Assembly: GCF_013315695.1 (NCBI RefSeq)
Contig: NZ_CP054353.1
Origin: Escherichia coli
GTDB lineage: Bacteria; Pseudomonadota; Gammaproteobacteria; Enterobacterales; Enterobacteriaceae
DNA length: 64,000 nucleotides
Strand: one strand, 5' to 3'
In this document: one piece after another, positions 3,001 to 6,000 of the stretch
Position numbering within the stretch: the first letter of the stretch is position 1
How the letters are laid out: each line of letters begins with the position of its first letter
Program-made: the position numbers

Positions 3001-6000
3001 ACTTCAAATGTAGGATTCAGATTAAACACAGGAGATAAATTATAAGCTGGAGTTGTCATTGCAAGATTATTTAAAGCACCCTGTTTGAGATTGGTTATCG
3101 GTGCTTCATTGACTGACATTTTTACATCTGACACAGAAGAATTATCATCGAAAAGCAATCCCTTAATTGTGTTAAAGAGAGAATGACTATTATCAGGTGT
3201 AGTTGTTGCAGTGCCAGCGCCTTTATATTGATTAGGAACGAGATTAGAAAGATTCTGTTTCATCCCTTCATTGCTTAATGGCGGTGCATCACCCATATTT
3301 TTCTGAATAGCATCTGTCTTATCATCATTACGATTAAACCAGTTTACAATCTTCATAATAGCTTCAAAGAGACTTCCTGTAGCTTCTCCCAGCTTCGTAA
3401 AATACGGAGTGAGATTAGAAAGGTTTTTCATAAACTCTTCCGTTACTTTTGGATCGAGAGATTTCATAAAGCCGTCTACGAATGCTACTTGTCTTGCATC
3501 AGAAAGCTGTGAAAGCTGTCTGTTTAGTTCTCTGAATTTAACAATAGAGTCTTGCTGTGTTTCTGTTAGCCATTTTCCAGAGGCTTTTTGCTGATTAATA
3601 CTTTCTTGTACATCTTTAACGGAACGTTGCCAATATTTTGACGTAAGCATCAAATCATCGCCCAGGTCTTCTAAACGTTGTCCAATTTGGGAGTCTGAAA
3701 ACCCTTTTTTCATCATTCCATTAACAGCCTTAGAAATTAATCCAGCCGGATTATCAGCAAATTTTTTAAGGTCGCTTTTGTTAATAACACCGATGTTTAT
3801 AGACTGGCCCCCTGAATCTCCAGACAACCAGTATCACTTATTTAAGTGATAGTCTTAATACTAGTTTTTAGACTAGTCATTGGAGAGCAGATGATTGATG
3901 TCTTAGGACCGGAGAAACGCAGACGGCGTACCACACAGGAAAAGATCGCAATTGTTCAGCAGAGCTTTGAACCGGGGATGACGGTCTCCCTCGTTGCCCG
4001 GCAACATGGTGTAGCAGCCAGCCAGTTATTTCTCTGGCGTAAGCAATACCAGGAAGGAAGTCTTACTGCTGTCGCCGCCGGAGAACAGGTTGTTCCTGCC
4101 TCTGAACTTGCTGCCGCCATGAAGCAGATTAAAGAACTCCAGCGCCTGCTCGGCAAGAAAACGATGGAAAATGAACTCCTCAAAGAAGCCGTTGAATATG
4201 GACGGGCAAAAAAGTGGATAGCGCACGCGCCCTTATTGCCCGGGGATGGGGAGTAAGCTTAGTCAGCCGTTGTCTCCGGGTGTCGCGTGCGCAGTTGCAC
4301 GTCATTCTCAGACGAACCGATGACTGGATGGATGGCCGCCGCAGTCGTCACACTGATGATACGGATGTGCTTCTCCGTATACACCATGTTATCGGAGAGC
4401 TGCCCACGTATGGTTATCGTCGGGTATGGGCGCTGCTTCGCAGACAGGCAGAACTTGATGGTATGCCTGCGATCAATGCCAAACGTGTTTACCGGATCAT
4501 GCGCCAGAATGCGCTGTTGCTTGAGCGAAAACCTGCTGTACCGCCATCGAAACGGGCACATACAGGCAGAGTGGCCGTGAAAGAAAGCAATCAGCGATGG
4601 TGCTCTGACGGGTTCGAGTTCTGCTGTGATAACGGAGAGAGACTGCGTGTCACGTTCGCGCTGGACTGCAGTGATCGTGAGGCACTGCACTGGGCGGTCA
4701 CTACCGGCGGCTTCAACAGTGAAACAGTACAGGACGTCATGCTGGGAGCGGTGGAACGCCGCTTCGGCAACGATCTTCCGTCGTCTCCAGTGGAGTGGCT
4801 GACGGATAATGGTTCATGCTACCGGGCTAATGAAACACGCCAGTTCGCCCGGATGTTGGGACTTGAACCGAAGAACACGGCGGTGCGGAGTCCGGAGAGT
4901 AACGGAATAGCAGAGAGCTTCGTGAAAACGATAAAGCGTGACTACATCAGTATCATGCCCAAACCAGACGGGTTAACGGCAGCAAAGAACCTTGCAGAGG
5001 CGTTCGAGCATTATAACGAATGGCATCCGCATAGTGCGCTGGGTTATCGCTCGCCACGGGAATATCTGCGGCAGCGGGCTTGTAATGGGTTAAGTGATAA
5101 CAGATGTCTGGAAATATAGGGGCAAATCCATTAACACATAAGCAATCAGTATGATTGGTTAGGTGATTACTCTTACTGCGCACAGCGCAATAGATTTCTT
5201 CGTGGGCGTTACCGCCAACGAAGTTACACGAAGAAAGTAACGCTTTGCTTTCGGTGTGAGCGGAACGGGCCAGCCACGAAGCCCGAAAGGTAGCGGAGTA
5301 AGGCTGCTTGCCAGAGAGTGAAGCTAACGCCGGAAGGCAAAAGATCATATATATAGATATAAAGAATATTATTATTATGATCTAATTAATAATCTAATAT
5401 AGTTTTATTAATAGTCTTATTGTAGTTCACAGTGACCTACCCCCTAGCTCACTATGACCTACCGTTACTACCAATCATCACATAGCACTCACTCTGTGTA
5501 ATGCCTTTCTATGTGTGTGCCATAATCCCCTATATTCCCTGTGTAAATCATAGAATATCCCTAACTTATTCCTGTGTAATTCCATACTAAAAATTCAATG
5601 AAAAGTAGCTTAAAAGTGCAATTCTTACTTTCTTCACTTTTACATCACTTTCGCAAATCCTTGTGTAGTGCGGCCTACAGAGCACCATCAGAAATTGTTG
5701 GCTAAAAATTGTTCTGCTTGTTTCTTAACGAGTTTTCTCGTTTGTGCAAATTTTAAAATTTATTTTGTTTTTACAGCCTTATTTCGTGTAATGCGTGGCA
5801 TAGCAAGCCCTTTTCTTGTGTTGTCAAGACATTTGGCAACGTTCAAACATCTGTTTAGAAATGCCAAATTGTTGATCTAACAAATAAACCTGTATAAACA
5901 GAACACCATTTAATCTATTCCCCTGTGTAATCCACTACATCACACAATAAAAACAAAAAAACCTTTAATTATGTTTCATAGCATACAAAAGTCAACAGAA

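What the first reader, a model, noticed from the sequence alone, without database searches (positions are those of the whole stretch)
5131..5345. GC-rich hairpin-forming segment immediately downstream of IS2
The first about 200 bp after IS2 contain several strong stem-loops, e.g. CTTCGTGGGCGTTACCGCCAACGAAG and GGCCAGCC...GGCTGCTTGCC, before the sequence turns very AT-rich. This may be a structured RNA, a terminator cluster, or a remnant of whatever IS2 displaced.
Basis: seen in the sequence. Interest (0 to 1): 0.3.

Follow-up and report, generated by a model that had tools for sequence, protein, structure and literature searches.

The report
Remnant of conserved structured island RNA
The hairpin-rich stretch after IS2 is the surviving right half of a roughly 410-480-base, strongly conserved and uncatalogued structured non-coding element that lies beside the replication origin of a phage-satellite-like island, and here a 6.4-kb deletion next to IS2 has cut it in two.

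Summary
Window 5131-5345 folds better than all 200 shuffles (z = -4.1).

It is not a stand-alone feature. An IS2-associated 6,413-bp deletion removed the left ~205 nt of a ~410-480-nt element, together with the island's rep and capsid genes.

Intact copies occur in about 8% of complete E. coli genomes, and in Enterobacter, Citrobacter and gut metagenomes. They always lie in the gene-free control region of a ~12-kb thrW island. That island encodes an integrase, an O-like Rep, a capsid protein, and tape-measure and baseplate homologues of phi92-like phages. The element is followed directly by an AT-rich, GATC-bearing stretch and by variable iterons.

About 12 sequence types are only 55-60% identical. 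They still keep the same hairpins and a three-way junction through compensatory changes, and they share an almost invariant ~60-nt core.

The window's + strand folds 13-36 kcal/mol better than the - strand in 18 of 18 types, and it is purine-rich. No Rfam family, plasmid, phage or paper matches it.

Best reading: a new structured RNA, transcribed towards the island's origin and acting there. The fold is shown; the transcript and the mechanism are inferred. The copy in this window is a dead fragment. A terminator cluster is rejected.

The parts
2859..3799 (-). C-terminal part (missing the N-terminus) of the island's 609-aa tape-measure-like gene, interrupted by IS2
   Evidence: Annotated as an incomplete CDS missing its N-terminus in the identical strain MSB1_4I. 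The intact APEC O1 protein matches PHROG tape-measure family 16051 and is about 35% identical to the tape-measure proteins of phi92-like phages.
3800..5130 (+). IS2 (1,331 bp; orfA/orfB at 3891-5119 with a programmed frameshift)
   Evidence: The left flank is ...GTTTA. In strain AF3 the same insertion carries the GTTTA target duplication on both sides. In the window the right-hand copy is missing.
5130..5131 (.). Deletion junction: 6,413 bp present in strain AF3 (L004 7131-13543) are absent here
   Evidence: BLAST of the window against L004: window 1-5130 = L004 2001-7130, and window 5131-14579 = L004 13544-22975.
5131..5172 (+). Hairpin M1, whose basal 5' GAG was lost to the deletion. Pairs: CAC 5135-5137 with GTG 5163-5165; TAA 5139-5141 with TTA 5159-5161; CAATCA 5143-5148 with TGATTG 5152-5157
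   Evidence: On A2, 86% of cells are paired, 6 pairs change on both sides, and the covariation score exceeds all 500 shuffles and all slid controls.
5178..5188 (+). Hairpin M2, GCGC-ACA-GCGC (nearly invariant)
   Evidence: There is no covariation. An alternative long-range pairing with the bases just before the core is possible.
5196..5235 (+). Three-way junction M4. Outer stem TTCTTCGTG with CACGAAGAA; arm 1 GGCG-TTAC-CGCC (5205-5216); arm 2 AAC-GAA-GTT (5217-5225)
   Evidence: It is the local minimum-energy fold in most types and in the full APEC O1 element. In 13 hand-curated variants with 4 outer-stem, 5 arm-1 and 4 arm-2 sequences, 193 Watson-Crick and 3 G-U pairs are kept out of 199.
5258..5312 (+). 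Nearly invariant core GAGCGGAACG-GGCCAGCC-ACGAAGCCCGAAAGGTAGCGGAGTAAGGCTGCTTGCC: an irregular hairpin capped by a GAAA loop
   Evidence: It is identical or nearly so in all ~80 homologues. The 14 predicted pairs are 100% kept, and all substitutions and 1-nt indels fall at unpaired positions except one G-C to G-U change. Covariance model R1 scores 100 bits at window 5255-5346.
5313..5346 (+). 3' tail with the conserved GAGTGA motif, a small GCC-GGAA-GGC hairpin and the terminal GATC
   Evidence: Other types carry GGCG-loop-CGCC here. This helix is not shared with the E. coli type.
5347..5426 (.). AT-rich stretch (about 23% GC) with GATC sites; a candidate DNA-unwinding region of the island's origin
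   Evidence: Every sequence type has an AT-rich, GATC-bearing stretch at this position.
5427..5463 (.). Iteron remnant (CACAGTGACCTACCCCCTAGCT, about 1.5 copies; 3-4 copies in APEC O1)
   Evidence: At least 7 unrelated iteron families occupy this position in other types. The island encodes an O-like/HTH_36 replication initiator.

Best explanation
Window 5131-5346 is the 3' ~215 nt of a ~410-480-nt structured non-coding element. That element belongs to the replication-origin and control region of a ~12-kb phage-satellite-like island integrated at thrW.

I read it as an RNA made from the window's + strand. It would be transcribed away from the island's leftward rep-capsid operon and into the adjoining AT-rich, GATC-bearing region and the iterons.

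Its architecture is an array of long imperfect hairpins plus a three-way junction, possibly closed by a long-range helix, followed by an almost invariant ~60-nt 3' hairpin that ends about 30 nt before the AT-rich DNA.

Most likely mechanism (inferred): it acts in cis at the origin, as an origin-activating or pre-primer transcript. The invariant core would be the docking site for a conserved host factor.

In this window the element is non-functional. A 6,413-bp deletion adjacent to IS2 removed its 5' half and the whole upstream region where its promoter would lie, along with the rep, capsid and other island genes.

Shown: the conserved fold, the strand bias, the position next to origin-like DNA, and the truncation. 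Inferred: the existence of the transcript, its start site, and the origin function.
For: Truncation
- The junction was mapped exactly.

Distribution
- The segment is present in 437 of 5,426 complete E. coli genomes, always chromosomal.
- It was also found in Enterobacter, Citrobacter, an Escherichia species, and 57 of 62 metagenome contigs.

Fold
- The full APEC O1 element gives z = -7.0 on the + strand and -5.4 on the - strand.
- In M1, 6 pairs carry compensatory changes, and the covariation score beats all 500 shuffles and all slid controls.
- The three-way junction and the triloop hairpins are kept through wholesale stem replacements: 196 of 199 pairs are standard.
- RNAalifold recovers M1, M2, the core and a closing helix.
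- Variation in the core is confined to unpaired positions, plus one G-C to G-U change.

Strand
- The + strand is more stable in 18 of 18 types with RNA parameters (mean -25 kcal/mol).
- It is also more stable in 12 of 12 types with DNA parameters (mean -12.8 kcal/mol).
- The + strand is 57-59% purine.
- M1 contains many G-U cells, which would be A-C mismatches on the other strand.

Non-coding
- The core carries 1-nt indels.

Context
- The order is the same in every type: leftward operon with its own strong promoter, then the element, then AT-rich/GATC DNA, then iterons.
- Island proteins are only 27-63% identical between types, while the core is about 100% identical.
- The iterons change family from type to type.
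- This pattern suggests a partner that is not island-specific.
Against: - No transcript data are available.
- No sigma-70-like promoter was found upstream on the + strand in either of the two types scanned.
- No intrinsic terminator follows the element.
- The invariant core and the proposed closing helix show no covariation, so their structure is unproven.
- Many hairpins have 3-nt loops (37 of 128 predicted hairpin loops), and a C-GAA-G mini-hairpin is present. Both are also typical of folded single-stranded DNA at origins.
- The island already has a Rep protein and iterons, so an RNA primer is not obviously required.
- The origin itself is inferred from sequence features and from Rep homology only.
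Confidence: 0.55

Rival explanations
1. The fold is used as single-stranded DNA rather than RNA. Once the adjacent AT-rich region opens, the displaced + strand folds into a cluster of hairpins. These would serve as a single-strand initiation signal for host primase, PriA or RNA polymerase, that is, a lagging-strand or complementary-strand origin.
For: - The element lies immediately next to the AT-rich/GATC stretch and the iterons in every type.
- 3-nt loops closed by C-G are frequent, and a C-GAA-G mini-hairpin is present.
- The strand asymmetry persists with DNA parameters.
- No promoter or terminator was found for an RNA.
- The extreme conservation of the core fits recognition by a conserved host replication protein.
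Against: - Conserved G-T wobble positions occur, up to 3 within one 12-bp stem. These would weaken DNA hairpins.
- GNRA/GNNA tetraloops and A/G-rich unpaired regions are typical of RNA.
- At 400-480 nt the element is several times longer than the single-strand initiation signals I recall from memory (about 60-150 nt).
Confidence: 0.22
2. The hairpins are incidental. The region is double-stranded DNA carrying an array of palindromic or repeated binding sites for island, host or helper proteins (operators or origin enhancers). One candidate is the ATTACAC-type motif, which also occurs in inverted orientation to the right of the origin.
For: - ATTACAC(G/A)A occurs 4 times on the + strand inside the E. 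coli-type element.
- YTGTGTAAW, its complement, occurs 6 times on the + strand to the right of the origin.
- The region sits between a divergent promoter and an origin.
Against: - Stem sequences are replaced wholesale between types while the nested architecture is preserved, including a three-way junction and bulged helices.
- There is a strong, consistent strand asymmetry and a purine bias.
- The invariant core is not a palindrome.
- G-U-compatible changes occur.
Confidence: 0.1
3. A cluster of transcription terminators, or merely chance hairpins in leftover GC-rich DNA such as a decayed gene.
For: - One hairpin (M2) followed by a T-rich run is flagged as terminator-like in the APEC O1 copy.
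- A 131-aa ORF on the - strand overlaps the segment.
Against: - No terminator-like site lies in window 5131-5345.
- The T-run after M2 is absent in other types.
- The ORF is a chimera that runs into IS2.
- 1-nt indels rule out coding.
- Conservation and covariation rule out chance.
Confidence: 0.03

Closest known systems
ColE1-type RNA II pre-primer, and the origin transcripts of T4, T7 and lambda (from memory)
   Same: A long, multi-hairpin, untranslated transcript read towards an origin and with no terminator before it. In those systems the folding of the RNA decides whether it can act at the origin.
   Different: This island also has an initiator protein and iterons. There is no sequence or Rfam similarity. 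No antisense partner, RNase H site or transcript has been shown.
Single-strand initiation signals and single-strand promoters (phiX174 and G4 complementary-strand origins, plasmid ssi sites, Frpo of F; from memory)
   Same: Clustered hairpins next to an origin, read by host enzymes. They have triloops and GAA mini-hairpins and use one specific strand.
   Different: The element is much longer (400-480 nt). It contains conserved G-T wobbles and a three-way junction. It is found only on these chromosomal islands and not on plasmids.
Large structured RNAs of prophages and mobile elements (ROOL, GOLLD; from memory), and phi29 packaging RNA
   Same: Hundreds of nucleotides of conserved structure with no assigned enzymatic role, carried by phage-related elements. 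phi29 pRNA is likewise encoded near a genome end or packaging region.
   Different: No match to any of the 4,227 Rfam 15 models. The architecture differs, and the element sits next to an iteron origin.
Phage satellites (P4-like, PICI, capsid-forming PICI, PLE)
   Same: The host island is about 12 kb and integrated at a tRNA gene. It has an integrase and its own Rep and origin but only a few virion genes. It also carries a short sequence copied from a phage genome end.
   Different: The gene set is a capsid protein plus tape-measure and baseplate homologues of phi92-like virulent myoviruses. That set does not match the satellite families I know. No published description was found. Dependence on a helper phage is untested.

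Membership tests
Any Rfam 15 RNA family | A score at or near the family's gathering threshold against its covariance model | tested here: not met
   There were 0 matches at gathering thresholds in the whole window. At E <= 10 on window 4900-6100, the only hits were three weak ones outside the segment. Nothing was found on the element in APEC O1 or in four other types.
Intrinsic (Rho-independent) terminator | A G+C-rich stem-loop followed directly by a U-run, conserved in homologues | tested here: not met
   No site lies in window 5131-5345. M2 is flagged only in APEC O1, and its T-run is not conserved.
Structured non-coding RNA (generic) | Base pairs maintained by compensatory changes across diverged homologues | tested here: met
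   M1: 6 pairs with changes on both sides, and covariation above all 500 shuffles and all slid controls. M3 and M4: 196 of 199 pairs are standard across unrelated stem sequences.
Structured non-coding RNA (generic) | A transcript of the folding strand exists, with defined ends | not testable with these tools
   No expression data are available. No sigma-70 promoter or terminator was found. The strand was inferred from folding asymmetry and composition.
ColE1-type RNA II pre-primer | Replication needs no plasmid-encoded initiator; the primer is generated by RNase H at the origin; an antisense RNA I exerts control | tested here: not met
   The island encodes an O-like/HTH_36 initiator and carries iterons. 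The RNase H site and the antisense RNA could not be tested. This is therefore at most 'works like', not a member.
Single-strand initiation signal (PriA or DnaG type) | Priming of DNA synthesis on the folded single strand by host primosome proteins | not testable with these tools
   Only position and hairpin style can be assessed.
IS2 (IS3 family) | A 1,331-bp element with terminal inverted repeats, orfA/orfB with a frameshift, and a 5-bp target duplication | tested here: inconclusive
   Length, ends and ORFs are met. The GTTTA duplication is present in strain AF3 but its right copy is absent in the window, because the adjacent DNA was deleted.
Phage satellite (for the host island) | Integrase and att site, own replication module, a size far below a phage genome, and an incomplete virion gene set | tested here: met
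   The APEC O1 island spans about 12 kb between tRNA-Thr and the integrase gene. It encodes a Rep homologue, a capsid protein, a tape-measure-like protein and a baseplate protein. The arrangement is syntenic in diverged relatives.
Phage satellite (for the host island) | Induction, packaging and transfer depend on a helper phage | not testable with these tools
   Only indirect hints exist: a 40-46-nt identity to the inner edge of the phi92 terminal repeat, and structural proteins related to phi92-like phages.

The most novel reading that the evidence does not exclude
The element is the founding member of a new class of large (~450 nt) structured RNA with an ultraconserved 60-nt core. It would be the hallmark of an undescribed family of enterobacterial satellites that parasitise phi92/rV5-like virulent myoviruses. 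The RNA would recruit a conserved host (or helper) factor to start or license replication or packaging of the satellite at the adjoining origin.
Probability: 0.3. Interest if true: 0.8.

Novelty: new variant of a known kind. Interest (0 to 1): 0.55.

Why it matters
If the intact element is a functional RNA, it adds a large, well-structured, easily testable non-coding RNA to E. coli. It is present in APEC O1, NC101, O26 and many clinical strains. It is tied to the origin of a mobile island whose proteins diverge to 27-63% identity while 60 nt of the RNA stay fixed. That pattern points to a conserved host partner, and the partner could be identified by pull-down.

It also flags the thrW island next to vat as a probable satellite of phi92-like lytic phages. 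These phages are used in therapy cocktails, so the island could affect phage efficacy.

For this particular window the practical message is simpler. The segment is a truncated relic, and the island here has lost rep, the capsid gene and half of the element.

Tried and rejected
- **Rfam.** Scans at gathering and at permissive thresholds on the window, on APEC O1 and on four other types found nothing. tRNA/tmRNA search found none.
- **Phage similarity.** BLAST of the element against 50,697 phage genomes gave only chance 23-40-nt hits.
- **Plasmid similarity.** BLAST against 72,556 plasmids gave no match.
- **Helper copy.** A covariance model of the core searched against a complete phi92-like genome and the phi92 right end gave no hit. 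The element is therefore not a copy of a helper sequence.
- **Terminal-repeat mimicry in other types.** The right flank of the Enterobacter-type element was searched for similar phage matches, with none found.
- **Upstream motif.** The CCCTACCCT...TAAAAT motif was tested as a phi92 promoter motif and is absent from the phage.
- **Three-way junction alignment.** MAFFT put the stems out of register, so they were curated by hand.
- **Capsid-based search for distant islands.** It returned only relatives at >=93% identity.
- **Closing helix.** Two pairings are possible for CCUCUGGC: with GUGAGCGG or with GCCAGAG. Neither shows covariation, so both are left open.
- **Literature.** Searches for a satellite of phi92/rV5, and for the core sequence itself, found nothing relevant.

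Full report
**1. The observation**

IS2 occupies window 3800-5130, and the segment begins at 5131. GC content is 39-57% over the segment and drops to 23% just after it.

As RNA, the + strand of 5131-5345 folds to -74.4 kcal/mol. Shuffles give -58.4 +/- 3.9, so z = -4.1, and none of 200 shuffles folds as well. The - strand gives z = -3.35.

**2. What IS2 did**

The window is 99.9% identical over 20 kb to strain MSB1_4I. Apart from one gap, it also matches strain AF3.

- Window 1-5130 equals AF3 locus L004 2001-7130. That stretch ends at the right tip of the same IS2, inserted in the same tape-measure-like gene.
- Window 5131 onwards equals L004 13544 onwards.
- In AF3, IS2 is flanked by the GTTTA duplication. 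In the window the right-hand copy and the next 6,413 bp are missing.

The cause is either an IS2-mediated adjacent deletion or recombination with a second, now lost, IS2 copy. These two cannot be told apart.

The deletion removed the rest of that gene, the capsid gene, the rep gene, the operon promoter, and the left part of the feature under study.

**3. The intact feature**

In APEC O1 (L001) the segment lies inside a 2.8-kb gene-free stretch, between a leftward operon and tRNA-Thr/proA.

The conserved structured part runs from CCTCTGGC (L001 7806) to ...GGCAAAAGATC (8217). It measures 412 nt there and about 360-480 nt in other types. The window keeps only the last ~215 nt.

The full element folds with z = -7.0 on the + strand and -5.4 on the - strand.

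**4. Homologues**

- The segment is present in 437 of 5,426 complete E. coli genomes, always on the chromosome and almost never annotated.
- Pattern scans recovered it from virus-classified contigs, from Enterobacter, Citrobacter and an Escherichia species, and from 57 of 62 metagenome contigs.
- Clustering gives about 12 sequence types. They are only 55-60% identical overall.
- All share an almost invariant core: GAGCGGAACG(A)GGCCAGCC(A)ACG(A/T)AGCCCGAAAGG(T/A)AGCG(G/A)AGTAAGGCTGCTTGCC.

**5. Structure and covariation**

*Hairpin M1 (window 5131-5172).* On a 14-variant alignment, 86% of cells are paired. Six pairs change on both sides. The covariation score is 0.167 against 0.113 for shuffles (0 of 500 reach it). 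Slid controls pair only 20-61% of cells.

*Three-way junction M4 (window 5196-5235).*
- It is the local minimum-energy fold in most types, and in the whole APEC O1 element.
- In 13 hand-aligned variants the outer stem takes 4 different sequences and the two arms take 5 and 4.
- Of 199 pairs, 193 are Watson-Crick and 3 are G-U.

*Accessory triloop hairpins (M3).* These show C-G to U-A and U-A to A-U exchanges.

*The core.*
- It is predicted to form an irregular hairpin: GGC+CAGCC pairs with GGCUG+GCC, with a CUU bulge, two internal loops and a GAAA loop.
- All 14 of its pairs are kept in 19 variants, but they never vary.
- The substitutions and 1-nt indels all fall in unpaired positions, except one G-C to G-U change.
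- This agrees with the model but does not prove it.

*Closing helix.* A long-range helix from CCUCUGGC is predicted in two alternative registers, and neither shows covariation.

The 1-nt indels exclude a coding function. The 131-aa ORF on the - strand is a chimera with IS2.

**6. Which strand, and RNA or DNA?**

- The + strand is more stable than the - strand in 18 of 18 types with RNA parameters, by 13-36 kcal/mol (mean 25).
- It is also more stable in 12 of 12 types with DNA parameters (mean 12.8).
- The + strand is 57-59% purine.
- M1 holds many G-U cells, which would be A-C mismatches on the other strand.

The folding strand is therefore the + strand.

G-U wobbles, GNRA/GNNA loops and purine-rich unpaired regions favour RNA. 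The many 3-nt loops, a C-GAA-G mini-hairpin, and the lack of any recognisable promoter or terminator keep a single-stranded-DNA reading alive.

My estimates are: RNA about 0.55-0.6, single-stranded DNA about 0.2-0.25, double-stranded binding-site array about 0.1.

**7. Context**

The APEC O1 island spans about 12 kb, from tRNA-Thr to an integrase gene. Its proteins are:
- a replication initiator (PHROG 'replication initiation', HTH_36/DUF6945);
- a Phage_cap_E major capsid protein;
- a 609-aa tape-measure-like protein;
- a baseplate protein.

The tape-measure-like protein is about 35% identical to those of phi92-like phages. The capsid protein is about 23% identical to heads of the same phage group.

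The operon has its own strong leftward promoter, at L001 7195->7167. A similar one occurs in a distant type.

Immediately right of the element, every type has an AT-rich stretch with GATC sites. Tandem iterons follow, belonging to at least seven unrelated families. This is the layout of an initiator-dependent origin.

The whole arrangement is syntenic in relatives whose proteins are only 27-63% identical, while the core stays fixed. The element occurs on no plasmid and in no phage genome. A model of its core finds nothing in a phi92-like genome.

**8. Mechanism**

Shown:
- a conserved single-strand fold of the + strand;
- its position directly abutting origin-like DNA;
- a core more conserved than any island protein.

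Inferred: the element is transcribed rightward into the AT-rich region and works in cis at the origin. It would activate the origin or provide a pre-primer, in the way ColE1 RNA II or phage origin transcripts work. The invariant core would dock a conserved host factor.

The main rival is that the same fold is used as displaced single-stranded DNA, as a priming signal. A terminator cluster, a decayed gene and chance are rejected.

**9. Known or new**

No Rfam family matches. No paper contains the core sequence. No description of a phi92/rV5 satellite was found.

The thrW site between proA and yagU is known as the insertion site of vat islands (PMC6592367), and vat lies next to this island in APEC O1.

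I class the intact element as a new variant of a known kind: an origin-associated structured RNA, or a large structured RNA of a mobile element.

The copy in this window is a truncated, almost certainly inactive fragment. It may still be transcribed by read-through from IS2.

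Noticed in passing
window 6350-6395 (= L001 9490-9535): Forty consecutive bases (ATCGGGGGGCGCTGAAAATCGCGTTAAGCACCTCTCGCAA) are identical to phage phi92 positions ~320-359. 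That stretch straddles the inner edge (343/344) of phi92's annotated 343-bp left terminal repeat. The same match occurs in about 46 phi92-like phages. Among the element-bearing loci it is present in 33 of 88, all of the E. coli type, 1.1-1.9 kb to the right of the core. It may be a mimic of the helper's packaging or cleavage site.
   Followed up: partly
window 752-~7700; APEC O1 locus L021 2045-14203: The host island looks like an undescribed phage satellite. It is about 12 kb, sits at thrW, and encodes an integrase, an O-like Rep, its own major capsid protein, and tape-measure-like and baseplate proteins related to phi92/rV5-like virulent myoviruses. It is syntenic in Enterobacter, Citrobacter and gut metagenomes.
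   Followed up: partly
window 5494-5931 (CTGTGTAAT at 5494, 5572, 5923; CTGTGTAAA at 5539; variants at 5661 and 5794): YTGTGTAAW is repeated about 6 times on the + strand to the right of the origin. Its complement, ATTACAC(G/A)A, occurs 4 times on the + strand inside the E. coli-type structured element. The motif therefore flanks the origin in inverted orientation. It is at chance frequency in a phi92-like genome.
   Followed up: partly
window 5995->5968 (- strand); GC skew over 5400-6050: A good sigma-70-like promoter (TTGACT-16-CATAAT here; 11 of 12 matches in APEC O1) points leftward towards the iterons and the structured element. GC skew also flips to strongly C-rich on the + strand over this stretch. 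This suggests a second, convergent non-coding transcript.
   Followed up: no
L024 10323-10341 and the equivalent position in most non-E. coli types: The extra hairpin TTTGCG-ACAAG-CGCAAA lies just after the element. Read on the - strand, it is followed by a T-run and scores as a terminator. It could stop antisense transcription from entering the element.
   Followed up: no
L024 ~9830-9880; L009 ~3680-3730: Just upstream of CCTCTGGC, the non-E. coli types share CGCTCT(A/G)(C/T)(G/A)GGCTTCC followed by a short hairpin. This is reminiscent of a lambda/rrn boxA-boxB antitermination site. Further upstream there is another conserved hairpin block (AGCCTG...AACGC...GCGTT...CAGGCT). The structured transcript may therefore start earlier than the element as defined here.
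   Followed up: no
window 4953-5348 (- strand): This 131-aa ORF begins in the segment and runs into the IS2 end. It is a chimera created by the rearrangement, not a gene. Two RefSeq genomes annotate a 'hypothetical protein' over the intact segment, which is probably also spurious.
   Followed up: partly
window 7723-14550: To the right of the island remnant lie pieces of other mobile DNA: a pRiA4b ORF-3 family gene, a PerC-family regulator, a P22 gp16-like ejection-protein gene, and an IS1A copy (13853-14550). Core genes, including fdeC, follow.
   Followed up: no
L029 (JAEYLX010000052.1, 'Bacillota bacterium' MAG); MG0656xx 'Campylobacter phage' records: A 4-kb contig binned as Bacillota carries the E. 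coli-type element, which probably reflects mis-binning. Several 'UNVERIFIED Campylobacter phage' records are phi92-like coliphage genomes.
   Followed up: no
L009 4300-4560; L010 4290-4640: Downstream of the iterons, the non-E. coli types share a conserved block (CACCCAACGGTAGATCGTCGCCCTGCTCAC...). On the - strand it could encode a short hydrophobic peptide. A 20-aa CDS is annotated there in one genome.
   Followed up: no
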